Shown: positions 11,366 through 50,100 of the stretch, piece by piece
Numbering within the stretch: position 1 is the stretch's first letter
How the letters are laid out: every line of letters starts with the position of its first letter
Assembly (NCBI GenBank): GCA_014729085.1
Contig: WJKM01000009.1
Coordinates: 126,590-190,589, forward strand
From: Candidatus Dojkabacteria bacterium
GTDB taxonomy: Bacteria > Patescibacteriota > Dojkabacteria > B142 > WJKM01
Length of the DNA stretch: 64,000 nt
Direction of reading: 5' to 3'
Notes under the pieces: generated by a model
Databases searched by the model: none
The model's input: the letters and a program-made list of their open reading frames with translations, nothing else
What the model was told of the DNA's origin: nothing
Made by a program: the position numbers and the translations under genes

Positions 11366-11813
11366 TTTTCATTTAGGGATCAAGGCATTAATTCTAAATC
11401 AAGAAAATGAACTTTTATTATTAAAAGTAAATAAGGAATTACTTAGAGGAAGTAAAAATGACTCTTACTGGGATATACCGGGTGGAAGAATTCAGAAAGG
11501 AGATACTATAGAATCTACAATCAAAAGAGAGGTTAAAGAAGAAACAGGATTAGAAATAAAAGAAATACAATTTTATGATATGGCAATTTCGAATATTAGA
11601 ATACCTGTTGGAGATACGGATGTAGGATTAATTTTGGCTGTATATACATGTAAATGTATAAATAATAAAGAACGAATAAAATTAAGTAGAGAACATGTCG
11701 ATTTTGGATTTTTTAACATCACACAATCTTCGAAATTACTTCAAGTAAAATACCCAAAAAATTTCACGAAAAAAGTAGAAAATTTGCACAATTTTTTTGA
11801 ACAAAAGAATTGA
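11346..11813 (+). CDS. NUDIX hydrolase
   Basis: Nudix box GGRIQKGDTIESTIKREVKEETGL; overlaps the nrdR stop by 20 nt (operon). Confidence 0.75.
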   Translation: MKIMEDSFHLGIKALILNQENELLLLKVNKELLRGSKNDSYWDIPGGRIQKGDTIESTIKREVKEETGLEIKEIQFYDMAISNIRIPVGDTDVGLILAVYTCKCINNKERIKLSREHVDFGFFNITQSSKLLQVKYPKNFTKKVENLHNFFEQKN

Positions 11814-11862
11814 AAATAATTAATTTGAGCATTTAATCTTCAAATTTTTTCTTTGTTTGACA

Positions 11863-11912
11863 ACACAACATATTGTTGTTATCTTAATTAAGAACCCCAA
11901 CGAATTGTGTTG
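11863..11912 (+). promoter_or_regulatory. candidate tandem NrdR boxes upstream of nrdJ
   Basis: ACACAACATATTGTTGT (11863-11879) and CCAACGAATTGTGTTG (11897-11912), centres ~33 bp apart. Both resemble the NrdR-box consensus acaCwAtATaTwGtgt; nrdR is adjacent. Confidence 0.4.
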
Positions 11913-12088
11913 AACAGTTAATTTAAAATAAGGTTGATGGTGCACTATTAGCTATTTTACGTAGCTATTTAAGCTCCTCAAATCTGTCCCTTAAGCAGAA
12001 AATAAAACACGAATTCCAAAGGGTTCAAATCAAACACAATAGTTATTTATAAAATAAATTTATTTATTATTTATTTAATTTTGCTGCC

Positions 12089-36686: not shown

Positions 36687-37220
36687 GTGATACTTTCAGA
36701 TCAAGATATATTTCAAAAGATTATTAAGGAAGATATCAAAATTGAACCTTTTGATAAAAATAACATTCATCCCGCCAGTTACATCTTTACTTTGGGTAAT
36801 AACTTACTGAAACCTTTACAAACAAAAGTCATAGATATTAAAAATAATCAAATTCCTGAGTATAAGAAAATTAGTTTGGATGAAATAGGATATGGTTTAG
36901 AACCAGGTGAGCTTGTTTTAGGACAAACATTGGAAAAATTAACTTTACCCCGAGATGTAGCTATGATAATTGAGGGTAGATCTACACTTGCTAGAATGGG
37001 TATCGAAATTATCCAAGAATCAAGTTTTATTGAGCCGGATCATTCTAATTCAATTATTACATTAGAAATTATTAATAATAGCCAGAGCCCAATTATTTTA
37101 TATCCCGGAATGGAATGCGCAAAAGGGATCTTCATAAAATTGACCAGCGAATATAGTGGTGATTTCTCTTCATCTACTTATACAACCCAAACGGAAGTTG
37201 AAGGGCCAAAGTTTGAATAG
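36687..37220 (+). CDS. dcd: dCTP deaminase (dUTPase superfamily)
   Basis: MILSDQDI N-terminus, ASY, IEGRSTLARMGI motifs of the Dcd family. Confidence 0.7.
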   Translation: MILSDQDIFQKIIKEDIKIEPFDKNNIHPASYIFTLGNNLLKPLQTKVIDIKNNQIPEYKKISLDEIGYGLEPGELVLGQTLEKLTLPRDVAMIIEGRSTLARMGIEIIQESSFIEPDHSNSIITLEIINNSQSPIILYPGMECAKGIFIKLTSEYSGDFSSSTYTTQTEVEGPKFE

Positions 37221-37289
37221 TAATTTTTTCTCGAAACCCTGTTTCCAAGTAATATTACTCTAATAATCACGGCTAACTATAGTTGTTTT

Positions 37290-37937
37290 CTAGTGAGCAA
37301 TGTAATCAGCCAATATATCCTTTAATCTTTTCTCTAGTTTTTCATAGGGAAGCTTGTTTTCGTTGTATGAAAACTCGCTTTCAAATTCCCAATATTCAGG
37401 ACATTCTTCTTGAGTAATCTCAACAGTATCTTCAAAAATAAGATTAGCTGTTCTAGCTTCATATAACTTAATTTCGTATTCAGCATCATAAAGATTCACA
37501 AACCCAGGCAAGGAATCATCATCTATTTCGTATTCGCACACATCACTGTTTGATTCGGTCTTATCAAGTAGTTTAACGCATAAAACAAGTTGCGTATTTT
37601 CTTCTTCTTTATACTTAGTTTGCCATTCATAAGGTAATTCCCATTTATGATTAAGAGGATCTGGTTCTGTATATTCGTTAGACAACTGATCCCATACGTA
37701 AGTAGCTGTTAAAGATATGTTTCCTTCTGATCTCTCATATTTAGCTACTTCTTCAATTCCTTCCTGCGAAATACAGAATTGTTCTAGATCTGAACGGATT
37801 TGATCTTGGTCATAAGTAGATGGAGAGGGATCTGCAGAATTATTTTTGGTTGGTTGTTGTACACATCCCGTTAGGAGTAACGAAGCGAAAAATATGATTA
37901 CTATATTTGAAATTAACTTCAACTCAATTTTTTTCAT
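37290..37937 (-). CDS. lipoprotein, unknown function
   Basis: Signal peptide with lipobox LLTGC; acidic. Confidence 0.45.
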   Translation of the reverse strand: MKKIELKLISNIVIIFFASLLLTGCVQQPTKNNSADPSPSTYDQDQIRSDLEQFCISQEGIEEVAKYERSEGNISLTATYVWDQLSNEYTEPDPLNHKWELPYEWQTKYKEEENTQLVLCVKLLDKTESNSDVCEYEIDDDSLPGFVNLYDAEYEIKLYEARTANLIFEDTVEITQEECPEYWEFESEFSYNENKLPYEKLEKRLKDILADYIAH

Positions 37938-38193
37938 TTTTGATTAAAGATTTAAAATATAATTTAAAATATTACATAATAATCCGAATGATTAAATTAT
38001 TGAAGTATATCAAGTATTTTTTTAAATTCCAATATCTTAAAAAAATATAAAGATTGTATGTTAGCTGTGATTTAGATATAATGCTAAAGCTTGATTGATA
38101 GCAAAGTATCAAAATATATAGTAGACACCTTGAGGCAAGAAAGTATATAATTTAGATATTGAAGTTTGAAAACTTAAAATAAAACTATGGTAT

Positions 38194-38268
38194 GGCCCCA
38201 TAGTATAACGGCTAGTACACCGGGTTTTCATCCCGGCGATAGGGGTTCGATTCCCCTTGGGGTCACCA
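38194..38268 (+). tRNA. tRNA-Glu (anticodon UUC), CCA encoded; target of an integrative element
   Basis: GGCCCCA acceptor, anticodon stem-loop CCGGG-UUUUCAU-CCCGG, T-arm AGGGG-UUCGAUU-CCCCU, UGGGGUC-A-CCA 3' end. Confidence 0.85.
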
Positions 38269-39739
38269 TCATAGAATTTTTCACTTCAAATGCTTCATTT
38301 AACTCAACTGACAATGGTTTTGTTGGTGTTGTAAAATTTTCATTTTTGTATATCAATCCTTGAGGAAATATGAATTTTTCGAACTTATTTTGCTGAAATT
38401 CATCCATCTTTGTCCATGCTTTACTCATATTTTTTAAAAGAACAACGCTAAATTTTATTAATTTCTCCTCGTCTTTCTCTGGGTCTGAGTACCTAGTTAG
38501 CTCAATATCAATTTTAGAAATCTTTTCTTCTAAATCTCCAATATACCTTTTTGATAACTTGTCGTTATAAATACCATTTAAATTTTTCTCAACAACTTTA
38601 TCTTGTTTTGCTCTTAATGTTCTTTTTTCTTTCTTAAGTAGATTTACTTTACTTTGTATTTCCTTGGTCCGATTTTTCCAATTTAAGATAATTGCTTCTT
38701 TTACCAATTTACCAACATCTTTCTTTAGTTTTATCTCTTTTAGATACTCTATAAAATTCTCTTCTACATCATACTTCCCTAAATTTATTCCACTACACTT
38801 AGTGCATCTATAATAACCATATTTTTTATATTTCCCCTGAGACCAGTTAGAAGTTAAGTAATTTCCACATTTTGCACATCTCAATACTCCTCTCAATGGA
38901 AAATCAGGATTAATCTTTTTATAAATTGGCAACTTTTTTGCTTTCCCATCCAAAATTAACTGCACGATATTGAAAAGTTTCGGAGTAACTATTGGTTCAA
39001 AACTACCTTTTAAATTCAATCCCATACTTGGCACATCAATATATCCCTTATAAACAGGATTTCTAAGCATTTTATAAAAGTGTGATTTACTTAACTTTTT
39101 ACCATTTTTCTTTTTCATTCCTATCTTATTAGCGTACTGCCTAACCTCTTCTTGACTTTTGTATCCTTTAGATATCTCTTGAAATACCTTTCTAATCTTA
39201 GGTTTTAGTTCTTTTACTGGAACAATGTTTGAGTTTCCACGTCCTCCTATATTCTTATATCCATATGGAGCCTTAAAAATATACCTACCTTGCTTAAGAG
39301 CCTCTACCATTCCAGCTTTAGTTCTATCCGCCCTGATTTCATTATCAAGCTGAGCGATATTTGCCATGGTATTTTCCATAAATCTTCCTATTGGATTGTC
39401 TTCAAAAGGCTCTGTTATAGAAATAACTTCGATTCCACAACTTCTAAAGAAGATTCTCAACTGTCCATAATCTGTGGAATTTCTTGAAAGTCTATCAACC
39501 TTGTATATCAATAAGGCATCATATTTCTTATCATTCAGTTTACAAAACCTCATCATTTTCTGAAGTTCCGTTCTGTCTACAGTTTTTGCACTTTCACCTC
39601 TTTCCACAAAAACCTTCTCAACTTCTATATCATTTTTTGAAGCATAATCTTTACAAAGCCTTTCCTGTGATTGAAGACTCATACCCTCTTCAGCCTGTTC
39701 GGTTGTGGACACCCTACAGTAGATTATTCCCTTTTTCAC
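38228..39739 (-). CDS. large serine recombinase (integrase)
   Basis: N-terminal resolvase catalytic domain GIIYCRVSTTEQ...LLIYKVDRLSRN, recombinase domain, Zn ribbon RCAKCGN...YYRCTKC, coiled coil; 503 aa. GTG start. The last 13 codons (MMVTPRGIEPLSPG) are the reverse complement of the tRNA-Glu 3' end. Confidence 0.85.
   Translation of the reverse strand: MKKGIIYCRVSTTEQAEEGMSLQSQERLCKDYASKNDIEVEKVFVERGESAKTVDRTELQKMMRFCKLNDKKYDALLIYKVDRLSRNSTDYGQLRIFFRSCGIEVISITEPFEDNPIGRFMENTMANIAQLDNEIRADRTKAGMVEALKQGRYIFKAPYGYKNIGGRGNSNIVPVKELKPKIRKVFQEISKGYKSQEEVRQYANKIGMKKKNGKKLSKSHFYKMLRNPVYKGYIDVPSMGLNLKGSFEPIVTPKLFNIVQLILDGKAKKLPIYKKINPDFPLRGVLRCAKCGNYLTSNWSQGKYKKYGYYRCTKCSGINLGKYDVEENFIEYLKEIKLKKDVGKLVKEAIILNWKNRTKEIQSKVNLLKKEKRTLRAKQDKVVEKNLNGIYNDKLSKRYIGDLEEKISKIDIELTRYSDPEKDEEKLIKFSVVLLKNMSKAWTKMDEFQQNKFEKFIFPQGLIYKNENFTTPTKPLSVELNEAFEVKNSMMVTPRGIEPLSPG
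38255..38268 (+). repeat. attL core (direct repeat copy 1, inside tRNA-Glu 3' end)
   Basis: Exact 14-mer CCTTGGGGTCACCA. Confidence 0.7.
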
Positions 39740-39888
39740 TTTTTATTCTCTTGTAAATATAAGTCAATTATCAGATTCGAAAAGCCATTAATTTGTTCTA
39801 TCAAAGAATCGATTTGATCTTGATCTTTGAAACCTAAGTTTTTCAACCTTTGACATAATACCTTATAGCTTTCATCAATTTTTTGCAT
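39736..39888 (-). CDS. small ORF (50 aa) translationally coupled to the recombinase; candidate RDF/regulator
   Basis: Hand-found: MQKIDESYKVLCQRLKNLGFKDQDQIDSLIEQINGFSNLIIDLYLQENKK. Its TGA overlaps the recombinase GTG start (GTGA). Below the ORF-track size cutoff. Confidence 0.3.
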   Translation of the reverse strand: MQKIDESYKVLCQRLKNLGFKDQDQIDSLIEQINGFSNLIIDLYLQENKK

Positions 39889-39983
39889 AGGCTAAAACAA
39901 TATACTGTCTTAGCCTGAGTGCCTCTCAGCGTCTAATTAATATTTAAAATTAGTTTAATATCCTGCTTTTTTTAGCTTAGATA

Positions 39984-40817
39984 CTAAACTTTGTAAACAT
40001 CTTCGAGTTTCATATTTACGATTTTTCCATCTCTTTTTGTAATTTGCACATTTGAGTAATTTTTGCTTTTAATTTGGTTGATTAAATCAAGTTCTGTTAA
40101 TGCTTTATCTGTATTATTTTCTTCACCATATACAGTGTAGGATTTATCAATATTTTTTTTAATTTTTATTTGCTTATAAGCACTATCCCTAATAATATTT
40201 ATGATTTCCTTTTCTTGTTGTGTTAGCTTTTCGTTCATTTCCTCAATATATTCACTCAACTCTTTATAATATGAAACTTCTATTCCGATTCCTGATTTTT
40301 TTATTGCTTCTATAACTATTTCATTAAAATTGAAATATACAAAAGAGTCATGTTTAGTCATTAAGTATGCAAAAGAATTTATATCAGAAAAATATACATA
40401 ACCTTCTGATGTAATTACTAGATAAATCTTAACTGTTCCTATTACACTTAAGAAAAGTATATCTAGAGGTGGGTTTGTTACACTGTGCTGTTTTTCTAGA
40501 TTTTTATAAAAGTCCTTATCATAAAAAATATGTTTTAGATTTTGAAGTTGTTCGTTTGTTAGATTATATTTTCTAGCTTCATGTATGCATTGTAGATAGG
40601 TTAGATCCTTTATGCTGAATTTTCTCCACCCCTTTGATTTATCTCTTGAGTCTACTAACATTTCATCATTATCTAAAGAATTTATCTGCCTGTAAGTGAG
40701 TACACTATCTTTGACAGTATAAACCCTCTCTTCAAATGACTCGATGAAATCAGAACAATCTTTTCTCTTTCTGAGTCCCTTATATTGTTCTATTAAGTTT
40801 GGTGTAAGTAAAATCAT
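39984..40817 (-). CDS. hypothetical protein (element cargo)
   Basis: 277 aa, no recognised motif. Confidence 0.4.
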   Translation of the reverse strand: MILLTPNLIEQYKGLRKRKDCSDFIESFEERVYTVKDSVLTYRQINSLDNDEMLVDSRDKSKGWRKFSIKDLTYLQCIHEARKYNLTNEQLQNLKHIFYDKDFYKNLEKQHSVTNPPLDILFLSVIGTVKIYLVITSEGYVYFSDINSFAYLMTKHDSFVYFNFNEIVIEAIKKSGIGIEVSYYKELSEYIEEMNEKLTQQEKEIINIIRDSAYKQIKIKKNIDKSYTVYGEENNTDKALTELDLINQIKSKNYSNVQITKRDGKIVNMKLEDVYKV

Positions 40818-40894
40818 GGAATTATATGTTAATGTATAATTTATCTTACATGAATAGAATTATACAGTCAAGTATAATTTAAAGAGTTTTAAAA

Positions 40895-41275
40895 CTATGA
40901 AGCTGCAATTATTGAAAGTATCTTTGTGGTTTGTTCTTTTGTAAGTTCTGGATGAGGGTATATTCCTTTTCTGTAAGCTGTTATTATTCTTTCAATTAAG
41001 TTGAAAGGAATAGTCTTTGTCTGGTCCGTTGTCTCGAATCTAATTTGAACAGGGAACCTACCTTGCCAAGCATTACCTTCAATATTAATATTTGGAGCTG
41101 TAGTAGGTTTGTAGGGACCTGAAAATTCGAATGTTGATGTGTTGTACAAAAAGAGATAATCTTCAAGAGTAATTTTCATCATACTAGCTTTGACTGCTTC
41201 TTCTTCACCAAAAAGCATACGTTCAAATACTTCATCTTTTGTTTTGTCGTTGCATCTAAAAATATAACCTTTCAT
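40895..41275 (-). CDS. DCD (Development and Cell Death)-like PUA-fold domain protein
   Basis: Alignment by eye to plant DCD domains, hedged. GYIFRCNDKTKDEVFERMLFG ~ G(V/F)IFMCxxxTxxEClxxxLFGLP; LFLYNTSTFEFSGPY ~ LFLFNYSDRKLHGIF; NINIEGNAW ~ NINPYGW; PVQIRFE ~ PAQVQIRV; TKILSIIAAS ~ SKLISLLAS. 126 aa; start overlaps upstream gene stop (ATGA). Confidence 0.5.
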   Translation of the reverse strand: MKGYIFRCNDKTKDEVFERMLFGEEEAVKASMMKITLEDYLFLYNTSTFEFSGPYKPTTAPNINIEGNAWQGRFPVQIRFETTDQTKTIPFNLIERIITAYRKGIYPHPELTKEQTTKILSIIAAS

Positions 41276-41694
41276 TTTCTTACCTTTTTAGTTTCTAAAT
41301 GATTTTGAGTAATTGCAATAATATACATGTACTTACCAGCATAGAAATAAAATAATCTGGAAGTTTGAGCCCCTTTATGCTCTCTCAACTCTTCTACATC
41401 TTCTGGTAATTTCCTAAATAGCTTCTTATATTCTCCACTACAATATACCCTTTGTCTTTTAATATTATTTTTATCCAATGTTGTATTATTACACCCGCCT
41501 ATTGTTCTGATATCTTTAACAAACCTTTTGGATGCACTACCTGACAATGAAGATATTTCACTAATCTTATCATTAAAAAATTGAAAAGATATTAAAAAAG
41601 GTTCCCCTTCAGGATCTCCTCTATATGGATTTAAAGCAACTTTTTCGGGAATATATTTATTTGTAGCTGTTGTCTTTGGATCGGGTATTTGCAT
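41272..41694 (-). CDS. possible RelE/HigB(Gp49)-fold toxin-like protein
   Basis: C-terminus SRLFYFYAGKYMYIIAITQNH resembles the RelE/HigB C-terminal beta-strands (R-I-I-Y-x-F...Y-L-L-x-I). Weak. Overlaps both neighbours (translational coupling). Confidence 0.3.
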   Translation of the reverse strand: MQIPDPKTTATNKYIPEKVALNPYRGDPEGEPFLISFQFFNDKISEISSLSGSASKRFVKDIRTIGGCNNTTLDKNNIKRQRVYCSGEYKKLFRKLPEDVEELREHKGAQTSRLFYFYAGKYMYIIAITQNHLETKKVRK

Positions 41695-42221
41695 TAAGAA
41701 GACTTTTTAATTAAAGAAGAATAGTAAGCCTTCATATCTTCCAAACTAATAACATTATTTGAGCTAACAGATGCATGAATTTGCCCCCTTGCATTCTGCC
41801 ATGGATCTTCGTTATGTGACAACTGTTCTAAATAATCGCCATCATATTTCCCATATACCCTCCATATCTCCTCTAGTAAGTCCTGATTAGGTATATCTGA
41901 AATTTCTGCATCATTTACTTTCAGTTCAATTGGTCTATATCCATATTTCTTATATTTGTTGTATACTACCTTAATTGCAGGACCATGTACCCATGCTTCA
42001 ATTTCTTCTTTGAATATTGGCTCTTCCTTGTATACCAGATGCCAAGCTTGTGAATAGTACAAGAGCTTTTGTAATTGTTTATTTGTAATACTCTTACCTT
42101 CTTTGGACGCTTTCCAAATAAAAAATTTAGCGATATCTAATGCTGATTTCGTTTTTTGTTTTTTTGGTTTATTCATAAAAAGAAAGTAAGAACTTAACAT
42201 TATTATAAACGTAATTTTCAA
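41694..42221 (-). CDS. Panacea-domain (DUF4065, PanA/SocA-like) antitoxin-like protein
   Basis: KQLQKLLYYSQAWHLVYKEEPIFKEEIEAWVHGPAIKVVY matches the DUF4065 core (LQKLLYYaQ..hL...g.PLF.e.feAW.hGPV). Confidence 0.6.
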   Translation of the reverse strand: MKITFIIMLSSYFLFMNKPKKQKTKSALDIAKFFIWKASKEGKSITNKQLQKLLYYSQAWHLVYKEEPIFKEEIEAWVHGPAIKVVYNKYKKYGYRPIELKVNDAEISDIPNQDLLEEIWRVYGKYDGDYLEQLSHNEDPWQNARGQIHASVSSNNVISLEDMKAYYSSLIKKSS

Positions 42222-42239
42222 CTTTTCAATTCACTTTTA

Positions 42240-43289
42240 TCACTTTTTATAATCCAAATACTTCTTAATCTTATTATATTCTAAACACTTCATGTAGTTC
42301 TCCATATATTCGAAGTCTGGTTGATTTTGATTATTCATAGGTAACATTATTTTCTGTCGTTTTAATCTTGCTGTACCCATCTTGTAACCATAGCCATATT
42401 TAGCACGTTGTCTTGTTATCTGTTGAGATATAAATATACCTATATGTTTAGATGGGTTATTTAACCGTAATTTTCTACAATCATTTGAAAACAATGCCTC
42501 GTATGAATGATAAAAAGAATAGCCAACAGACCCATTTCGATTTACAGAAAGGCAACCTGCTTCTTTCGTTTTATTATCGTTGCTTACAAAATATCCGATA
42601 CCATTATTATTTGCAGTTGATGATACATAAGGCGTATTACCTGATATTCTTTCCTTTGCATAAATATCACGTCCAGATTCAATAGTGGCTACATCTTGAA
42701 TAAAAAACTCACCCCATTCTTTATCTTCTAATGGCTCAACATCTTTATAATCCTGCAATTCTGCTAATCTTTTTGAAACAACCTTTTTGTATTTATCCAA
42801 CTTATTTTGTTCTTTTTGCCTCATATAGGCTTCCATAAATTCATAGTCTGGGTTGCATTGTGAGTTGGTTGGTAAAAGTATTTTGCTTCTTCTCAATCTG
42901 GTTAGGGTTGCACCATTACTGCCCCAATTGAACTTATCCATTTGTCGAATGATTAAGGGGATAAGAAATTGTGCTATATCTTTGTTAAGGAACTCACTTC
43001 TTAAAACTTGGATATTCTGCCCTGTGTAAAACGATTTAGGCTGGTAGAAAACGGTTTGTGTATCAAGTCCAATTGTAATTACATTCCCTTCATCTAATTT
43101 GAATTTTTCTGCTTGCTTACCAATAAATGAATCCCACCCGTTATCTTTCTCAGAACGAGTTATATAAGGTGTATTACCTGTCTTATTACTTAATTTGTTA
43201 CGGTCGATACTACTTGATGAAGAATCAATATCAAAAGTATCTTCAAAAGTAAATTCCTTCCAGTTTTTATCTTCTAAACTTAATTTCAT
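42240..43289 (-). CDS. restriction-modification specificity subunit (HsdS-like; BcgIB-like)
   Basis: Two target-recognition-domain halves, each followed by a conserved TRLRRSKILLP/ARLKRQKIMLP ... PDYEFME/PDFEYME block; 349 aa. Confidence 0.75.
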   Translation of the reverse strand: MKLSLEDKNWKEFTFEDTFDIDSSSSSIDRNKLSNKTGNTPYITRSEKDNGWDSFIGKQAEKFKLDEGNVITIGLDTQTVFYQPKSFYTGQNIQVLRSEFLNKDIAQFLIPLIIRQMDKFNWGSNGATLTRLRRSKILLPTNSQCNPDYEFMEAYMRQKEQNKLDKYKKVVSKRLAELQDYKDVEPLEDKEWGEFFIQDVATIESGRDIYAKERISGNTPYVSSTANNNGIGYFVSNDNKTKEAGCLSVNRNGSVGYSFYHSYEALFSNDCRKLRLNNPSKHIGIFISQQITRQRAKYGYGYKMGTARLKRQKIMLPMNNQNQPDFEYMENYMKCLEYNKIKKYLDYKK

Positions 43290-43291
43290 AG

Positions 43292-45190
43292 TTATTTATC
43301 GTCATTTTCAAATAAATAATCTCTGCCTTGCATAATCATATTAAACTCAAAGGTAAGGTAATCACCTATAGTTTGCTCAAAGTCTTCTGGCTTTGGTATT
43401 TCGTCATTAAAGTAATAGAAAGAATGTAGCCATTCGTCATCTGGTTCTATGGTTGTTTTCACCATAAATTTAGTATCTGCTGGTGCATCATGTAGCCAAC
43501 AACTTAGTAAATGTTCTTTTCTTTCTTTTGCTCTCTCAGTTTCTACAAGTCCGATATGCTTACTTACCACAAATCCATCATCTTCAAAGTTAATAAATTT
43601 ACAATACTTTTTGAGGTTATGTGGTTTATGAGATGTAAATATGGCTATGCATGGATTAGTTCCAATACCATAGAATGTATCCTTATTTAGTGTAATTACA
43701 CCTTCCAAAGTATGTTTTTCTAATATTCTTTTTTTAACCTGTCTATCTTCTTTTGTTTTACCTACCATAGTTGATTGAGGAATTATGACAGCTGCTCGTC
43801 CTTTGTCAGTTAGACTATCAAGTAAATGTTCAATGAAATGTATTTCTGATAAATGTGCAGTATCTTTTCCTTTGGCTTGTGAATAAGGAGGATTCATTAA
43901 ACCTACAGTATAATTATTTTTCCTCATCTCTTCTGCACTTCTCTTGAGAAAGTCATCTTTTAAAAGATTACTCTTTCCATCTCCACGTAAAATCATATTA
44001 GTAGTTGCAATGGCAAACATATCTTCTCTAATTTCTATTCCGTGTATTTGTTCTCTTTTAATTTTATTCTGTTTATTCTTATCTGCCTTCTTTAACATCT
44101 TATACATTGCGGTAATCAAAAAACTTCCTGTACCACATGTGGGGTCAAAGACAATATCATTTGGTTTTATATCCAATAAATCACAAAATAATTCAGTAAT
44201 ATGACTAGGAGTTAATACAACACCCAAAGTTTGACCATCACCACCACTATATCTAATAAATTCACCATAAAAACGTCCTAGAACATCCTCTTTAGAGTTT
44301 GCTACAACGCTATCAAAAACATTCTTTTTTAAATATTCAGTAAAGTATTTCAGCGGTGTTTTCTCTAGTCTTTTATCTACCTGATTAAGTATAGTTCTAT
44401 CCATTACAATATTAAATTGACTCAAAACTTGCTCCTTTTTGATTTCTGGCTTTACCTCAACACGTGTCATGTGTGTAGATAAAGCATCAAATATTATATT
44501 TCCATCTGTTTTTACGCTATCTCCTTTTAATAAGTCTGGAATATCTGGATTCTCATTTAAAGCTAGGAGAATAGCAGATACGACAAGGGGTTTTTCCTTA
44601 TCTCCAAGTTGTCCATAGTTTCTTAAATCTTCGTGAAGTGCTTTCGATTTCTTTAGTATTACTTCTAATTCAACCGTTTCGGGTGGCGTTTCATTAAGTA
44701 CCTGTTCTTTATAGTATCGTACGATATTTTCTTTAGAAAAATTTTCAAAATTTTCAACTGGTTCTAATAATATATATTCGTTTTCATTGACATATATAGG
44801 TCGAATCATGTGATGTTTCTCATCACCAGAACAACCAAAAGCAAATACCTTTTTGAAATTTGTTTTCTGTACTATTTGCCTAGCATAGTGCAAAGCCCCA
44901 TTTTCTGCATATTCAGTTATCGATTTTGTATCTGTTGCGAGATGAGAGTTGCTCTCATCTTCATATCTTGCTTGTTTGTCTAAATCAGCTTTATCCTCCA
45001 TTACAAGAATAAACTCATCTGATTTAGCTGTAAATTCTGGAAAGCCTACATTCCCTGTACCTTTCTTTGATGAAGTTTTTAGTGCATTTTCTATCTCTTT
45101 AATCCCACTTCCATTTGGTGTAAATTTAATGCCCACCTTGCCAAGTAATTTACCAACAAAGAAGTCAGTTATTTTTTCATTTTTACTCAT
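43292..45190 (-). CDS. fused endonuclease/N6-adenine methyltransferase subunit (BcgIA-like Type IIB/IIG; alternatively HsdM)
   Basis: Gamma-class MTase motifs FDPTCGTGSFL (motif I) and NPPYS (motif IV); N-terminal region with candidate PD-(D/E)xK (SDEFILVMEDK). 632 aa and 349 aa partner sizes resemble BcgI A/B (about 637/341 aa from memory); no HsdR is present in the element. Confidence 0.65.
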   Translation of the reverse strand: MSKNEKITDFFVGKLLGKVGIKFTPNGSGIKEIENALKTSSKKGTGNVGFPEFTAKSDEFILVMEDKADLDKQARYEDESNSHLATDTKSITEYAENGALHYARQIVQKTNFKKVFAFGCSGDEKHHMIRPIYVNENEYILLEPVENFENFSKENIVRYYKEQVLNETPPETVELEVILKKSKALHEDLRNYGQLGDKEKPLVVSAILLALNENPDIPDLLKGDSVKTDGNIIFDALSTHMTRVEVKPEIKKEQVLSQFNIVMDRTILNQVDKRLEKTPLKYFTEYLKKNVFDSVVANSKEDVLGRFYGEFIRYSGGDGQTLGVVLTPSHITELFCDLLDIKPNDIVFDPTCGTGSFLITAMYKMLKKADKNKQNKIKREQIHGIEIREDMFAIATTNMILRGDGKSNLLKDDFLKRSAEEMRKNNYTVGLMNPPYSQAKGKDTAHLSEIHFIEHLLDSLTDKGRAAVIIPQSTMVGKTKEDRQVKKRILEKHTLEGVITLNKDTFYGIGTNPCIAIFTSHKPHNLKKYCKFINFEDDGFVVSKHIGLVETERAKERKEHLLSCWLHDAPADTKFMVKTTIEPDDEWLHSFYYFNDEIPKPEDFEQTIGDYLTFEFNMIMQGRDYLFENDDK

Positions 45191-45266
45191 TTGAGAATTA
45201 TATTTTTAAACATAAAGAAATTACTATTTTTATAATAAAGCACTTAGCTATAGATAGCAAACTACC

Positions 45267-46403
45267 TTAGACAAGGTTTATTTGACATTTTTCTGTATTC
45301 ATTTTTTCTTCAGATAGCAACTCATTAGTAATGGATTTGAACTCTGAAATTTGTGCATTAATTTCATTTCGAATATTTGAATATTCATAATCATCAAATT
45401 CTTTTAAAACTTTCTTACATAATTTCCATACTCTTTTAGTAGTAGTGTTGCTATATCTATTTTCAAAAATCTCTTTTGCCTTATGAATACCTAAATCACT
45501 ACATAACCTAAAACAAGTAATAATTGCCCATTCCTCACTTGGTTTTATGTCTTGGTCCCAAATATATTCATACATTCTTTTGATAGTAGGTAATCGCATA
45601 GGAATAAACTTAAATTCATCAGAAAACAAGCTCTTATTCAAATCATAGAGTAGTATCTTTTTGCTTAAACCACTATCAAAGATATCTTTAAGTGTAAGGC
45701 GTTCAACTTTCCTTCCTAATGCCCATGAATATTTTGCGTTTGTTCTCTGATAATTTTGCATGCGATATTCAAATCTTAGAATATTATTTTGTTTTAAATT
45801 CTGAACAAGTCCTTTTTCTTTATCTGTTTTATGATTAATCGCAACTAAAGAGGGGGCTTTTGCATATATTCCAATTCCCGTTGAAGTTGTAAATTCTCGA
45901 ATGGAAACACCATTTTCTTTATAATTTTCAAACTTTAAAGAGTGTCTCCATTTCCACCATAATCTTCTTGTAAATTCAATAAACTCAGTAGCTCCAACTG
46001 GACCATCTAGAATTATATTTTTCGATACTGTAGCAAAAGACACATAGCTATTTTTAAGTGCTTCGTTTGATATATTTATTCCCATATCATAAAGCTTTTT
46101 AGTAAAGTTACCTATAAAGTCATCGAAATCTTCATTTGATAACTCTTCTACATTATTTTCAAATAGTATTTTAGGAGCAGAAAATTCAATGTAAAGCTTG
46201 CCATTACCTCGAAAAGTTAAACTTGGATAATACTCACCTGTTGTATCTATCAACTGACCTTGCTTTATAAATCGTTTCTCCTTGATATCCATCTCGGGCT
46301 TTCTTAACATAAGGACTTTATAAACTTTCCCATAAATATCTTGAACTTGAATAGGTTTAATTATTTGATAGTTTGTTGTGTTTATTTTTATTGTATCTAG
46401 CAT
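45267..46403 (-). CDS. hypothetical protein (element cargo; possible replication/partition function)
   Basis: 378 aa, first large gene inward of attR; no confident motif. Confidence 0.35.
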   Translation of the reverse strand: MLDTIKINTTNYQIIKPIQVQDIYGKVYKVLMLRKPEMDIKEKRFIKQGQLIDTTGEYYPSLTFRGNGKLYIEFSAPKILFENNVEELSNEDFDDFIGNFTKKLYDMGINISNEALKNSYVSFATVSKNIILDGPVGATEFIEFTRRLWWKWRHSLKFENYKENGVSIREFTTSTGIGIYAKAPSLVAINHKTDKEKGLVQNLKQNNILRFEYRMQNYQRTNAKYSWALGRKVERLTLKDIFDSGLSKKILLYDLNKSLFSDEFKFIPMRLPTIKRMYEYIWDQDIKPSEEWAIITCFRLCSDLGIHKAKEIFENRYSNTTTKRVWKLCKKVLKEFDDYEYSNIRNEINAQISEFKSITNELLSEEKMNTEKCQINLV

Positions 46404-46684
46404 TTTTACTCTGGTAACCAGTTATATCAGTTCTCTTATCAATTTTAATTAAGATTTCAAAGAATTTAACTAACCTTTGCATTTCTAATTCTGTTAGTTT
46501 TAAAGATTCTTTTTTCTTCATGATTGCTAGTTTAAGAAATAATTAACTAGCTTTTTATCATGAACCAAGTATTTTTGTATTACACGGCGGTATATATTCA
46601 AACAAGAAGCGGTTGAAGTTTGAAATTCTTAATGAAGTAACCAAGCTCTACAAGCCTTTCGTGGAAAGTGTTGTAAAATGATTT

Positions 46685-46698
46685 CCTTGGGGTCACCA
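46685..46698 (+). repeat. attR core (direct repeat copy 2, tRNA-Glu 3' fragment)
   Basis: Exact 14-mer CCTTGGGGTCACCA preceded by GATTT (near-match to tRNA GATTCC). Confidence 0.7.
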
Positions 46699-46709
46699 AA
46701 AAATAAAAT

Positions 46710-46737
46710 CCACCTTTATGGTGGTTTTTTGTTTTTT
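46710..46737 (+). terminator. rho-independent terminator (probably the original tRNA-Glu terminator displaced by the insertion)
   Basis: CCACC-TTTAT-GGTGG hairpin followed by TTTTTTGTTTTTTT, located 12 bp after attR. Confidence 0.5.
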
Positions 46738-47022
46738 ATAATCTTCTGAAATTAAACGGACGGTTCTACATTTTTCGTCAGAAATTGATAACTTTTCGGA
46801 AAACGCTAAGGTAGGAAACTTTTATTATACAACCAACTCATAGTTCCTTTATTCTGGGTGCAGAATGTAAATGAGGACAGAATTCCAAGTTTAATTAGAA
46901 TTTACAGATTTCTATCAAAAGATTATGAATGCATTAAAGTTGACTAAGAAAGAAAAGGTCTATTTATCTGAGATAAATTTTTATGATAATTGAAAGTGAT
47001 TTTTTAGAGTTTTCATTCAAAA

Positions 47023-47040
47023 TTTGTATTGCAATACAAA
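47023..47040. promoter_or_regulatory. perfect 18-bp palindrome upstream of rhs (candidate operator)
   Basis: TTTGTATTGCAATACAAA, ~120 bp upstream of the rhs start codon. Confidence 0.35.
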
Positions 47041-47161
47041 GTCAAATTAAAAATATTCTAATATAATTAAAAAACAATCAGAGGAAATTTTTATATACAA
47101 AGGGTTAGATACTATCAATTAAATTTCTAATTAAAATCAATTTATTTATTATTTTCTTCTA

Positions 47162-50100
47162 ATGACCAAACCGCTCAAAAAGGTCTTGATTGAAACTATC
47201 CACATTATTCACAATACAGTAAAAAGAGTACAGCTAAAAAACTTAAAGCTGTATTTTTTTATTTTGCCTTTTTTGCTTTTAACATTTACACCTGTTTTTG
47301 CTCAAACGACAGACGAATATAATTACTCAGATTGTGGATTTGTTATCGATGATTCAGATTCAGGTTGTTCAGAAGCATATGGTAATTGGAAACTACAGAA
47401 AATAGGAAATAAAGGGACATCATTACTTTCTCCAAAAGACACTTTCTTGCCTTCTGTTACATGGGTTCCAGATTATAAAAACCTGAAAGGGCAGGTTGAG
47501 GTATTTGCAACCATTCCAAGAATTGAGGGAGAAAATTTGTCCGAAGTTGCTTGGTACAAAATAAAACATAGTGAGGGTACAAGCGATTATTTTGTAAATC
47601 AAAAAGAAAATGCAGGAGATATAGTATCACTTGGAATATATAATTTCGATGGAACCGAAGTTTCAATAGATTTATATGGATCTGGTGGTGAGGTAGTTGT
47701 GGCAGATACTGTTTGTTTTGGTAGATGCTCAATAGGTGACATAACTCCACCAAGGATTGAAGAAGTTAAAGGACATAGTTATATGGGAGAATTACATGTT
47801 CAGTCAAAAATAACAGATGAAGGGACAGGTGTAAAGAATGCTTATGTATCAATTCAGGGAAATATTTACCCTATGAATGCAAAAGGAGATATTTATTCAG
47901 CGATTGTTCCATATATTCCAGGAACTGATTTGGAATGGTATATTCTTACATATGACAACGCAGGAAATGAAGCTATATGGGAACCTGGGCGTGGATATGT
48001 AACAAGAGGGGGAGGTTTAAATTTAGGAGTACCACCTGAGGCTGTTGATTTTGTTTGCTATAAAGAAGAGTTTAATAATACAGTCCCACCTGCAACACCA
48101 GGATCAGATCCATGTGAATGGACAACAGGAGATCCTGTAAATACTGTAAACGGAAATTTAATGGAAAGTGTAAATTTAATAAATATTTCCGGACGTCCTT
48201 CAATTAACCTTACTATCTACTATAACAGTCAAGGTACAGGTCTCTCAATTTTCGGTGAAAGTTGGCTTTATGATTATAATTACCATGTAACAGAGATGGA
48301 TAACGCTGACTTCAGTGGGGCTTTTGTGCAATATCCTTCAGGTAGCAATGCAATGTTCGAAAACTTCAAGTCTCCAGATGGAGTAAGAGACAAACTTGAA
48401 AAAATAGGAGATGGGTATCTTCTTACTCTTCAAGATCAGACAAAAATCTATTTTGATTCAAATGGAGATATTTCTAGATGGGAAGATATTAATAGAAATG
48501 GTCTAAACTTTGAATACTCAGAACAGATTAAATTTGTAAATTTTTCAAAGCTGTCAAAGATAACAGCAGATTCAGGTAGAAAAATTACATTTGAATACAA
48601 TGATGTTGGTTTAGTTTCTCAAATAAACGCACCAGAGAATAAAATTATCAAATTCGAATACAATGACACAGATGATTTAATTAAAATAATCAAACCTAAA
48701 GAAAGAGGGATTATATTTGAATACGATAATCACAGCATTACAAAAAAAATCAGTCCACAGGGACATGCATACTACGAAAATATCTTCGATAATCAAAGAA
48801 GAGTTATAAAACAAGTTGCAGGTACATCATTTACGCAGGAATATATTTATAATGACAATGAAACAATAGTTAAAAATCTTAACGGTTCACAAGCTGTCTA
48901 TAGTTATAACGAGGATTACTTAATGGTCAGCAATACAGATGAAGTTGGGAATACCAAGACATTTGAATACAACAATAAAAAGCAGATAATAGCTGAAATC
49001 GACGCTGAAGGGAAACGATATGAATACACATATGATGAAAATGGCAACCAGATACATATAAAAGATCCAATGGGATATGAGATAGAAAGAGAATTCAATG
49101 AATTTAATAAACCTGTAAAAGAAATCAACCAGAATGGAAAAGAAACTAGATGGGAATATGACAAAAAGGGAAATTTAGTCAAAATAATTAACTCAAATGG
49201 CAACGAAAAAATATTCAGCTATAACGAATATGGACAACTAATTGAGCAAACAGACTTTAATGGAAATAAAACTGTTTTCAAGTATACAGCTGAAGGTGAT
49301 CTTAAAAAGATAATAGATGCAGATGGAAATGAAATTGTATATACATACGATGAACTTGGAAGAATATTGACTGAAACAAACAAACGTGGGATTACCTACA
49401 CATACACCTATGATGTAAATGACAATCTTCTTAAAATTGAGGGACCTCTTGGATATACAAAATCATTTGAATATGACAAAAATAACAGACTTATTAAAGA
49501 GACTGACTCTAAACAAGAAATGATTTCGTATACATACGACAATTCGGAAAATATTTCTTCCATCTCAAATCAACTGCAATTTGTTACGAGTATGGAGTAC
49601 GGATCAATGAACGAATTTGCAAAAGGAATAGATGCTGAGGGACATATAACTGAATATGCATATCATCCTACGTACAAAATATCTCAAGTTAGACAGGCAG
49701 CTGGAACCTCAAAAGAAGCTATTTCTAATTTTGAATATAACAACGTAAAACTTCAAAAAAGAATTATAGATGCAGAAGGAAAGATTACCGAGTTTGTATA
49801 TGATGATTTATATAGAATAGTTAAAAAAATTGGAGACGTGAACGGAATTGAAATTGAAACACGTTTTAAGTACAATCCTGTTGGAGCCCTTGTTAAACAA
49901 ATCGATCCAAACGGAAATGCAGTTGAATATACTTTAGATAATTTAGATAGAGTAATCGAGCAAAAAGATGCCGAAGGAAACATTACAAAGTACGAATACG
50001 ACCCGAACTCAAACATTATAAGCACAACCAATCCAAGAGGCTTTAAGACAAAATTTGAATACAATAAGTTAAACCAACTTGTAAAGCAAATCAATTCAAT

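What the first reader, a model, noticed from the sequence alone, without database searches (positions are those of the whole stretch)
38194..46737. Integrative element inserted in tRNA-Glu by a large serine recombinase whose ORF reads through the tRNA 3' end
A 14-bp exact direct repeat (CCTTGGGGTCACCA) occurs at the tRNA-Glu 3' end and again 8.4 kb downstream. Everything between is on one strand and starts with a 503-aa large serine recombinase. An isolated hairpin terminator sits just past attR, as expected for the displaced original tRNA terminator. Unusually, the recombinase ORF extends across the att core and uses the antisense tRNA body for its last codons (…RGIEPLSPG*). The C-terminus would therefore differ between integrated and excised forms. 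Serine rather than tyrosine recombinase use of a tRNA site with a long identity block is also uncommon.
Basis: seen in the sequence. Interest (0 to 1): 0.7.

Follow-up and report, generated by a model that had tools for sequence, protein, structure and literature searches.

The report
tRNA-inserted element that splits its integrase
An 8.4-kb mobile defence island sits at the very end of a tRNA-Glu gene in a Candidatus Dojkabacteria genome, put there by a serine integrase whose own gene is cut by the insertion; the same layout recurs in relatives from many bacterial phyla.

Summary
In detail: tRNA-Glu(UUC) at 38194-38268, a unique 14-bp direct repeat at 38255-68 and 46685-98, a terminator at 46710-24, ten minus-strand genes between them, and a 503-aa large serine recombinase (LSR) whose last 13 codons are antisense tRNA. 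The host is a Candidatus Dojkabacteria bacterium with no close relative on record, so no empty site or circle of this copy could be found. The read-through is a family trait. In 48 of 80 related loci from many phyla the LSR ORF ends inside an antisense tRNA, against 0 of 78 generic phage LSRs. Rejoining the two element ends in silico extends the ORF in frame to 523 aa and adds a conserved amphipathic C-terminal helix. The same "tail exon" lies at the far end of about 20 related integrated elements, after cores of only 6-16 bp. Two related circular contigs carry the full-length gene. So attP lies inside the integrase gene and integration swaps its C-terminus, as in the tyrosine-integrase phage Mx8, but here in a serine integrase. 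What the swap does is untested. tRNA use by serine integrases has only been noted computationally. Cargo includes a BcgI-like restriction system and a Panacea toxin-antitoxin pair. Verdict: new variant of a known kind.

The parts
38194..38268 (+). tRNA-Glu(UUC) gene, complete, with CCA encoded. This is the target gene, regenerated by the element-borne core.
   Evidence: ARAGORN; Rfam RF00005, 65.9 bits.
38255..38268 (.). attL core: 14-bp copy CCTTGGGGTCACCA, covering the last 2 bases of the T-stem, the acceptor 3' strand, the discriminator and CCA. The crossover is inferred to lie near tRNA positions 71-74 (38263-38266).
   Evidence: Unique two-copy repeat. Intersection of the cores of 19 related loci.
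38228..39739 (-). Large serine recombinase, integrated form, 503 aa. Residues 491-495 (MVTPR) are encoded by the core and 496-503 (GIEPLSPG) by antisense tRNA body. The TGA stop is at 38228-38230.
   Evidence: Pfam Resolvase 1e-31, Recombinase 3.5e-11, Zn_ribbon_recom 8.7e-07. Invariant R9/S11/D82-R83-R86 in alignment A1. Translation.
39736..39888 (-). 50-aa ORF overlapping the LSR start by 4 nt. It is a conserved small helical protein and a candidate regulator or directionality factor (inferred).
   Evidence: Homologous small ORFs sit in the same position in L001, L002, L084, L088 and L089.
39984..40817 (-). 277-aa conserved backbone protein with a MerR-like DNA-binding N-terminal half.
   Evidence: tblastn hits just upstream of the LSR in 12 related loci. 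Weak Pfam MerR_1 hit. AF2 model pLDDT 66; the top Foldseek hit is the MerR-type CvkR 7xn2, E 0.016, prob 0.99.
40895..41275 (-). 126-aa DCD (development and cell death) domain protein; cargo.
   Evidence: Pfam PF10539, 2.3e-20.
41272..41694 (-). 140-aa partner of the Panacea protein, a putative toxin; cargo.
   Evidence: Weak Gp49 hit. Conserved as a pair with the Panacea gene in L001, L083 and L084.
41694..42221 (-). 175-aa SocA/Panacea-domain antitoxin; cargo.
   Evidence: Pfam PF13274, 3.5e-20.
42240..43289 (-). 349-aa specificity subunit of a BcgI-like type IIB/IIG restriction-modification system.
   Evidence: Pfam Methylase_S 2.6e-33. PADLOC Specificity_II PDLC03591, 2.2e-55.
43292..45190 (-). 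632-aa fused restriction endonuclease-methyltransferase (type IIG).
   Evidence: PADLOC REase_MTase_IIG PDLC03602, 8.5e-180 over the full length. Pfam N6_Mtase 7.8e-38.
45267..46403 (-). 378-aa protein of unknown function. A replication role is possible but unsupported.
   Evidence: No hit in Pfam, PADLOC, PHROGs or NCBIfam. No homologue in related loci.
46357..46521 (-). 54-aa ORF of unknown function.
   Evidence: ORF list; no family hits.
46598..46684 (-). Detached 'tail exon': 28 codons plus stop (KSFYNTFHERLVELGYFIKNFKLQPLLV*). After excision it continues the LSR ORF in frame across the core and encodes the conserved C-terminal helix.
   Evidence: Translation and reconstruction. It is 59% identical to the L002 tail, with 8 of 19 conserved residues using different codons. 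It is homologous to the natural tail of the circular L088 LSR.
46685..46698 (.). attR core: second copy of CCTTGGGGTCACCA, the displaced tRNA 3' fragment.
46710..46735 (+). Displaced original tRNA terminator: hairpin CCACCTTTATGGTGG plus T-run, which is the B' side of attB.
   Evidence: Terminator scan. The outer flank of attR also shows a hairpin followed by a T-run in several related loci, e.g. L075, L056, L060, L048, L070, L047.

Best explanation
Window 38255-46698 holds one integrated copy, about 8.43 kb, of a small integrative element that is not a phage. It carries defence cargo: a BcgI-like type IIB restriction-modification system, a Panacea toxin-antitoxin pair and a DCD-domain protein. 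It belongs to a large, previously uncharacterised clade of large serine recombinases (LSRs) that target the extreme 3' end of tRNA genes. In the free circular form, attP lies inside the integrase gene. It sits in the disordered linker-coding stretch between the last folded part of the zinc-ribbon domain and a conserved C-terminal amphipathic helix. Recombination with attB (the tRNA acceptor end followed by its terminator) has three consequences. First, it regenerates the tRNA from a short element-borne core, which is 14 bp here and as short as 6 bp in relatives. Second, it carries the helix-coding 'tail exon' to the far end of the element, next to attR. Third, it leaves the integrase ORF to run into the antisense tRNA and stop there. 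The integrated state therefore encodes a 503-aa enzyme lacking the helix, and the excised state a 523-aa enzyme carrying it. The anatomy, the family-wide conservation and the existence of circular relatives are shown. Three things are inferred: that this copy can still excise, where exactly the 2-bp crossover lies, and that the C-terminal swap changes integrase activity, stability or directionality.
For: Anatomy of this locus. No tyrosine recombinase or phage structural genes. Cargo. Family trait: 75 of the 120 closest homologues end in antisense-tRNA peptides. In 48 of 80 related GTDB loci, spanning Patescibacteria, Acidobacteriota, Myxococcota, Planctomycetota, Gammaproteobacteria and Verrucomicrobiota, the LSR stop lies in or next to an opposite-strand tRNA. 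The targets are Glu 27, Ala 7, Lys 5, Met 4, Leu 2, Arg 2, Pro 1. The control is 0 of 78 generic LSR loci from IMG/VR. Tail exon: repeat-anchored reconstruction gives an in-frame helix tail in the window, L002, L006, L013 and L037. A profile of natural helix tails finds the exon upstream on the same strand, with 21 hits in 19 loci against 1 on the opposite strand at score >=10. In the loci where the junction was resolved, the exon is preceded in frame by a 6-10 bp core identical to the tRNA 3' end, and in many of them by a terminator-like outer flank. Protein-level selection: the window tail is 59% identical to the L002 tail, as is the LSR body (58.9%), and 8 of 19 conserved residues use different codons. 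Natural excised forms: L088 has a 30-bp terminal overlap and a 582-aa ORF across the junction. L171 has a 24-bp overlap and a Prim-Pol/PriCT/AAA_25 ORF across the junction. Both are circular, lack tRNAs and carry the full-length helix-type LSR. P0004 (tRNA tail) and P0008 (helix tail) are 89% identical up to ...GNSTMV and then diverge. In the AF2 model of the circular-form LSR P0015, folded domains end near residue 493, the linker at 497-510 that holds the crossover is disordered, and residues 510-524 are helical.
Against: No empty tRNA-Glu site and no circular junction could be found for this element. The genome has no relative closer than about 70% protein identity. Base composition does not differ from the flanks. 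The tail helix has low pLDDT (41-55) and no predicted docking site, so its function is open. Helix-type full-length copies also occur in long chromosomal contigs with no tRNA within 10 kb, so 'helix type = excised' is not a general rule. No non-palindromic dinucleotide is shared by all cores, and the dyad-symmetry scan of att sites gave no clear centre. No recombination directionality factor has been identified.
Confidence: 0.85

Rival explanations
1. Neutral by-product. The element and its LSR are real, but the ORF runs across attP only because the site happens to abut the gene end. On this view the two C-termini are functionally equivalent and the 'tail exon' is conserved only as the DNA of the attP P' arm.
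For: LSR C-terminal tails are generally variable. The tail helix is not confidently docked in the AF2 model. The read-through occurs in more than one frame relative to the tRNA, e.g. GIEP versus GIRT or GNRT tails, so the tRNA-encoded peptide itself is probably not selected.
Against: The helix motif (xxWNxIxxELxxLxxIL) is conserved at the amino-acid level across phyla, and synonymous codon changes are seen in the one pair examined, window versus L002. It extends 45-75 nt beyond the crossover, further than a typical LSR half-site of about 25 bp. It is kept in frame in about 20 integrated elements where it belongs to no ORF. It is also present in clade members with no tRNA nearby.
Confidence: 0.2
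2. Immobile relic. The island integrated once and is now a fixed, domesticated defence locus whose recombinase no longer acts.
For: There is no compositional contrast with the host. No empty site, second copy or circular junction was found. The integrated LSR lacks the conserved helix.
Against: The LSR ORF is intact with all catalytic residues. Both cores are perfect 14-mers. The tail exon is an open 28-codon frame that still matches its family. The translationally coupled small ORF and the conserved 277-aa gene are intact.
Confidence: 0.12
3. Artefact or chance. On this view the 14-mer repeat is coincidental, the contig is chimeric at one boundary, or a different recombinase moved the element.
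For: None beyond the general possibility in metagenome-assembled genomes.
Against: 0 matches are expected by chance. The boundaries fall exactly at a tRNA 3' end and in front of a terminator. The same anatomy is seen in about 20 independent assemblies. No other recombinase gene lies in the element. The standard genetic code fits the window, with TGA used as a stop in 5 of 37 long ORFs.
Confidence: 0.02

Closest known systems
Myxophage Mx8 integrase (intP converted to intX on integration)
   Same: attP lies inside the integrase coding sequence. Integration creates a recombinant gene with a new 3' end and an altered enzyme (PMC6070905, citing Tojo 1996 and Magrini 1999). From my own knowledge, the Mx8 attB sites lie in tRNA-Asp genes.
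   Different: Mx8 Int is a tyrosine recombinase of a 49-kb phage. Here the enzyme is a large serine recombinase of 4.6-10-kb non-phage elements. The removed part is a short tethered helix, and the arrangement is conserved across a whole multi-phylum clade.
SSV1-type integrases of Sulfolobus fuseloviruses (own knowledge: Reiter et al. 1989; She et al. 2001)
   Same: attP lies within the int gene, and integration into a tRNA gene partitions int into two pieces at the two ends of the provirus.
   Different: These are archaeal tyrosine recombinases, and the split removes a large part of the gene and inactivates it. Here only the last 20-40 codons are detached and all folded domains stay intact.
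Classical phage large serine integrases (phiC31, Bxb1, A118, TP901-1)
   Same: They share the domain order resolvase, recombinase, then zinc ribbon with a coiled coil. They use short att sites with little identity, and the gene lies next to attP.
   Different: Only the catalytic domain aligns with solved LSRs (TP901-1 5e-10, Bxb1-like 9iu2 3e-06). Known enzymes target protein-coding or intergenic sites, and their ORFs are not interrupted by attP. In the control set, 0 of 78 generic phage LSR ORFs end in a tRNA.
tRNA-targeting genomic islands with tyrosine integrases (Islander signature; P4-like, NBU1-like)
   Same: The signature is an intact tRNA gene plus a displaced 3' fragment flanking an island, with int next to the tRNA.
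   Different: The recombinase family differs. [quoted passage not shown] The crossover here is at the extreme acceptor end, so the identity block can be as short as 6 bp.
S-Int islands in t(m)RNA genes flagged by TIGER (Mageeney et al. 2020, PMC7192596)
   Same: That is a computational observation that 14 of 297 single-integrase S-Int elements sit in t(m)RNA genes. The authors call it previously unreported and in need of experimental proof.
   Different: In the passages I searched I found no description of a dedicated clade, of attP inside the ORF, or of a detached conserved C-terminal exon. Whether those 14 cases belong to this clade was not checked.

Membership tests
Large serine recombinase (serine integrase) | N-terminal resolvase-type catalytic domain with the nucleophilic serine and conserved Arg/Asp residues | tested here: met
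   PF00239 1e-31, residues 5-153. Y7, R9, S11, Q15, D82, R83 and R86 are invariant in 32 clade members.
Large serine recombinase (serine integrase) | Recombinase domain followed by a zinc-ribbon domain with an inserted coiled coil | tested here: met
   PF07508 3.5e-11 and PF13408 8.7e-07. The AF2 model of relative P0015 shows long antiparallel helices at 349-396 and 402-424, between the strands at 306-330 and 471-479.
Large serine recombinase (serine integrase) | Recombination at a 2-bp crossover between short attP and attB sites that share little identity | not testable with these tools
   The data are consistent with it: cores are 6-16 bp, all at tRNA positions around 68-76. The dinucleotide is not assignable and the symmetry scan was inconclusive.
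Integrative genetic element in a tRNA gene (Islander signature) | An intact tDNA plus a displaced 3' tDNA fragment in direct orientation flank the island, with an integrase gene inside | tested here: met
Integrative genetic element in a tRNA gene (Islander signature) | The integrase belongs to the tyrosine recombinase family | tested here: not met
   No Phage_integrase domain occurs in any of the ten element ORFs. The only recombinase is a serine recombinase.
Integrative genetic element (mobility) | Sporadic occurrence: an empty attB in relatives, or a detectable circular attP form of the same element | tested here: inconclusive
   There were 0 hits for the attB/attP pattern and for the tRNA 3' half in metagenome contigs. 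The nearest relative is at about 70% protein identity. Circular forms exist only for related elements L088 and L171.
Elements whose attP lies inside the integrase gene (Mx8 and SSV1 type) | The integrase ORF is continuous across attP and is recombined into a different ORF on integration | tested here: met
   Window: 503 aa integrated versus 523 aa reconstructed. Natural continuous ORFs occur in circular L088 and L171. About 20 integrated relatives have a detached in-frame tail.
Elements whose attP lies inside the integrase gene (Mx8 and SSV1 type) | Tyrosine recombinase chemistry | tested here: not met
   The enzyme is a serine recombinase. The element works like these cases at the gene-architecture level but is not a member of the group.
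Temperate phage / prophage | Capsid, tail, terminase or lysis genes | tested here: not met
   There were no structural-gene hits in Pfam or PHROGs. The element is only 8.4 kb. The clade is almost absent from IMG/VR, with 1 full-length member among the 80 best loci.
BcgI-like type IIB/IIG restriction-modification system (cargo) | A fused endonuclease-methyltransferase subunit of about 630 aa plus a separate specificity subunit of about 340 aa | tested here: met
   PDLC03602 8.5e-180 (4-629 of 632 aa) and PDLC03591 2.2e-55 (12-339 of 349 aa). Enzymatic activity was not tested.

The most novel reading that the evidence does not exclude
The C-terminal swap may be a built-in state sensor for a serine integrase. 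On this reading the tethered helix, present only when attP is intact, sets activity or directionality. For example, it could be required for attP x attB synapsis, or it could mask the coiled coil. The helix-less enzyme made from the integrated copy would then be biased towards excision, or be silenced. This would give a whole multi-phylum clade of tRNA-targeting LSRs control of directionality that is hard-wired into the recombination product rather than supplied by a separate directionality factor.
Probability: 0.3. Interest if true: 0.85.

Novelty: new variant of a known kind. Interest (0 to 1): 0.72.

Why it matters
Two textbook generalisations are qualified. The first is that tRNA genes are the preserve of tyrosine integrases. 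The second is that serine integrases disrupt the genes they enter. This clade uses the last few bases of a tRNA, restores it with as little as 6 bp of identity, and is spread over many phyla, including ultra-small CPR bacteria whose mobile elements are poorly known. The split-gene layout yields two integrase isoforms tied to the integration state. That makes LSR directionality control directly testable, by comparing the 523-aa and 503-aa proteins on four defined att substrates. LSRs are prime genome-engineering tools, so enzymes whose natural attB is a highly conserved tRNA end could serve as ready-made landing-pad integrases for uncultivated or genetically intractable bacteria. The elements are also compact vehicles for restriction-modification systems, Gabija-like genes, OLD-family ATPases and toxin-antitoxin modules.

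Tried and rejected
Several approaches led nowhere.
- Exact-sequence look-ups of the window LSR, of the upstream 215-aa protein and of the 277-aa protein found no contigs.
One used a degenerate pattern matching attL, attR, attB and attP; the other used the tRNA-Glu 3' half.
- The composition profile shows no G+C contrast.
- A dyad-symmetry scan of 16 reconstructed attP and attB sites gave no consistent centre. Combined with the core intersection, no single non-palindromic dinucleotide fits all loci.
- The near-identical pair P0004 (integrated) and P0008 (helix tail) could not be closed into a before/after proof, because the P0004 contig ends inside the element.
- PHROGs, NCBIfam and PADLOC gave nothing for the 378-aa, 54-aa, 50-aa and 126-aa ORFs or for the 140-aa partner.
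- A phmmer census with the C-terminal 87 aa returned only 82 clusters, mostly fragments, so it gives no usable clade size.

Four ideas were considered and rejected.
- An alternative genetic code that would extend the ORF past TGA: the window is densely coding under table 11, and TGA ends 5 of 37 long ORFs.
- A prophage.
- A hidden tyrosine integrase.
- A helix-type tail always meaning an excised form: helix-type copies also sit in long chromosomal contigs, and L170 and L172 are not circular.

Full report
OBSERVATION. ARAGORN and Rfam place a complete tRNA-Glu(UUC) gene at 38194-38268 on the plus strand. Its last 14 bases, CCTTGGGGTCACCA, occur once more in the 64-kb window, at 46685-46698. This holds even with one mismatch allowed, and shuffles give no match. 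Twelve bases after the second copy lies the hairpin CCACCTTTATGGTGG followed by a T-run. Between the copies, ten ORFs fill the minus strand. The one nearest the tRNA, 38228-39739, is a 503-aa protein with Resolvase, Recombinase and zinc-ribbon domains. Its final codons...NSMMVTPRGIEPLSPG*, are the reverse complement of the tRNA 3' part. The one check that does not discriminate is base composition, which is about 0.30 G+C inside and outside.

HOST AND CARGO. The window's class II ribonucleotide reductase and its 277-aa element protein are 100% identical to NCBI proteins of a Candidatus Dojkabacteria bacterium, on a 198-kb contig. The next relative of the reductase is only 70% identical, and two metagenome scans for the junction sequences and for the tRNA 3' half found nothing. 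A comparative empty site for this copy is therefore not obtainable with the collections at hand. The standard code applies. The cargo has three parts. One is a BcgI-like restriction-modification pair: a 632-aa fused endonuclease-methylase (E 8.5e-180) and a 349-aa specificity subunit (E 2.2e-55). The second is a SocA/Panacea antitoxin with a 140-aa partner, and the third is a DCD-domain protein. There is no tyrosine recombinase and there are no phage structural genes.

THE READ-THROUGH IS A FAMILY TRAIT. The 120 closest homologues (34-59% identity) carry few source names, and those that do are labelled Patescibacteria. Of these, 75 end in peptides that are recognisably antisense tRNA, such as ...VTPRGIEPRLPG...VDPTGLEPATPSLQMRCSTR and ...VDPRRFELLTSS. 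I then took 80 related loci from species-representative genomes, drawn from Patescibacteria, Acidobacteriota, Myxococcota, Planctomycetota, Gammaproteobacteria, Verrucomicrobiota and Bacteroidota. In 48 of them the LSR stop codon lies in or beside a tRNA gene on the opposite strand, and 8 more run off a contig end. Among the loci analysed further, the targets are Glu (27), Ala (7), Lys (5), Met (4), Leu (2), Arg (2) and Pro (1). As a control, none of 78 generic LSR genes from IMG/VR viral contigs ends in a tRNA, and only one full-length clade member turned up there. This is a dedicated tRNA-targeting LSR clade that is not typical of phages.

THE OTHER C-TERMINUS IS A CONSERVED HELIX. The homologues that do not end in tRNA antisense diverge from the tRNA-type proteins right after a conserved ...S-x-x-V position. 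After a variable linker they share an amphipathic motif, roughly xxWNxIxxELxxLxxIL. Joining the window's two ends as excision would (LSR 3' end, core, then the sequence left of the attR core) extends the ORF in frame. The result is ...MVTPR|KSFYNTFHERLVELGYFIKNFKLQPLLV*, 523 aa, and it fits that motif. The same reconstruction, anchored only on the direct repeat, gives an in-frame helix tail in L002, L006, L013 and L037. A profile of natural helix tails was searched in all six frames upstream of the tRNA-type LSRs. At score >=10 it hits 21 times, in 19 loci, on the LSR strand and once on the other strand. In the loci where the junction was resolved, the hit is preceded in frame by a 6-10 bp core identical to the tRNA 3' end (TGGTAGCCC, GTGACCC, GTGGAC, GTGCGCC, TGGCGACCC and others). 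The outer flank is often a hairpin followed by T's, which is the displaced tRNA terminator. Element sizes are 4.6-8.9 kb. The window tail is 59% identical to the L002 tail, the same as the enzyme bodies (58.9%), and 8 of the 19 conserved residues use different codons. In the closer pair L060/L056 the tail has 3 synonymous changes and 1 non-synonymous change. Conservation therefore looks protein-level, for a sequence that belongs to no ORF while the element is integrated.

NATURAL EXCISED FORMS. Two contigs carrying helix-type LSRs are circular. L088 (9,595 bp) has a 30-bp terminal overlap and a 582-aa ATPase ORF that is continuous across the junction. L171 (10,324 bp) has a 24-bp overlap and a 637-aa open frame across the junction. 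From its first Met, that frame encodes a 631-aa Prim-Pol/PriCT/AAA_25 replication protein. Neither contig has a tRNA. The L088 tail (MTLR|EPFSNGLLNQLTEIYFFIKQANIQPF) is clearly homologous to the window's reconstructed tail. P0004 (tRNA tail, in a 319-kb chromosomal contig) and P0008 (helix tail) are 89% identical up to ...GNSTMV and then diverge. At least some family members therefore exist as replicating circles with an uninterrupted integrase gene.

WHERE THE CUT FALLS. All cores cover the acceptor end of the tRNA. Their intersection is three to four bases, corresponding to tRNA positions about 71-74, which in the window is GTGA on the LSR strand at 38263-38266. No non-palindromic dinucleotide is common to all loci, and a symmetry scan was uninformative, so the exact crossover is unresolved. 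The crossover is so close to the 3' end that the element needs to supply only a few bases to regenerate the tRNA. This explains cores as short as 6 bp and shows that the 14-bp identity in the window is not a mechanistic requirement. In the AF2 model of the circular-form enzyme (mean pLDDT 86.5), the folded part ends near residue 493. The crossover maps to the disordered linker at 497-510, and residues 510-524 are helical but of low confidence. Integration therefore removes a tethered helix and leaves all folded domains intact.

MECHANISM. Four things are shown: attP lies inside the integrase ORF; integration exchanges the C-terminus; both isoform-encoding states are maintained by selection across phyla; and the backbone also holds a conserved ~50-aa ORF translationally coupled to the LSR and a conserved MerR-like 277-aa protein. 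What is inferred is that the swap matters functionally. By analogy with Mx8, where integration alters the integrase C-terminus and its properties (PMC6070905), the helix may be needed for integrative synapsis, or may modulate the coiled coil that sets LSR directionality. Its loss could alternatively tune stability or expression. A neutral by-product cannot be excluded, and I give it about 0.2.

COMPARISON WITH WHAT IS KNOWN. [quoted passage not shown] A review of integrative mobilisable elements places serine-recombinase sites within genes (PMC5704250). The large LSR survey preprint does not mention tRNA at all. Mageeney et al. 2020 found 14 of 297 serine-integrase elements in t(m)RNA genes, and called this previously unreported and in need of experimental proof (PMC7192596). 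Full-text searches for serine recombinases combined with Patescibacteria, CPR or tRNA targeting returned nothing relevant. The gene-splitting principle is known for tyrosine integrases: Mx8, and SSV1 from my own knowledge. The finding is therefore a new variant of a known kind. It combines a serine-integrase clade specialised on tRNA 3' ends with an attP-in-gene architecture.

CAVEATS. Mobility of this copy is not demonstrated. Helix-type copies also occur in long chromosomal contigs without a nearby tRNA, and L001 shows an integrase-less 2.1-kb insert between the tRNA and the element. The family therefore has arrangements I have not explained. The tail profile of the second round included tails found in the first round, so the strand asymmetry and the independent core and terminator evidence are the unbiased parts of that test.

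Noticed in passing
window 47162-55342 (+): A 2,726-aa ORF lies directly downstream of the element. Its internally repeated segments hit one region of the Acidobacterium locus L077 many times at 22-32% identity. It is probably a giant surface or repeat protein.
   Followed up: no
window 40895-41275 (-): A 126-aa protein matches the 'development and cell death' (DCD) domain, PF10539, at 2.3e-20. From memory this family is best known from plants. Here it sits between a toxin-antitoxin pair and the recombination module of a CPR mobile element.
   Followed up: no
L001 2320-6007: An LSR with an attP-type helix tail is followed by 2.1 kb without an integrase (HIT, DUF7347 and small ORFs), and only then by an intact tRNA-Glu. 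An 11-bp repeat CGGTAGGGTCA marks both ends. This looks like a tandem or integrase-less insert that might be mobilised in trans.
   Followed up: partly
L064 about 11630-13210: A repeat of at least 30 nt, CGGCTTCAATGAGGCCGCGACTGATCAGTC, starts 34 nt after the stop of a helix-type LSR. It recurs at +823, +1468 and +1610, which are multiples of about 71.7 nt. This is a CRISPR-like array abutting the recombinase in an Acidobacteriota chromosome.
   Followed up: no
L009, L011, L014, L027, L030 (Bacteroidota); L064, L071, L074, L076, L077 (Acidobacteriota): Full-length helix-type LSRs sit in long chromosomal contigs with no tRNA within 10 kb. Several keep a tRNA-like V-P-(L/P)-T-G stretch before the helix. 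Their targets and att positions are unknown.
   Followed up: partly
L083, L087, L088, L089, L171: Related elements share the backbone (277-aa gene, small ORF, LSR) but swap cargo. L083 has Dcm plus HinP1I-type R-M and Panacea TA. L089 has type III R-M. L087 has Gabija-like OLD/UvrD genes plus PLD. L088 has an AAA_15/OLD-like ATPase. L171 has a Prim-Pol replicase. Together they look like a modular family of mini defence islands.
   Followed up: partly
L080 nt 4438 and 5445; L055 about 225 bp upstream of the LSR (- strand): L080 has two tail-exon copies on one side of its element. L055 has an inverted tail-like exon next to the LSR. These may be remnants of earlier insertions or rearrangements.
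   Followed up: no
window 38269-38400 (+): After integration the tRNA-Glu gene has lost its terminator. The scan of 37000-48000 reports no plus-strand terminator between the tRNA and a weak hit at 43377. tRNA read-through transcripts would therefore be antisense to the LSR mRNA, which could be a silencing route.
   Followed up: no
P0248 (50% representative library): A 265-aa protein is 100% identical over its last 87 residues, the only part compared, to the C-terminus of the window's LSR, including the tRNA-encoded tail. The same locus may therefore have been called as a fragment in some assembly. The source was not examined.
   Followed up: no
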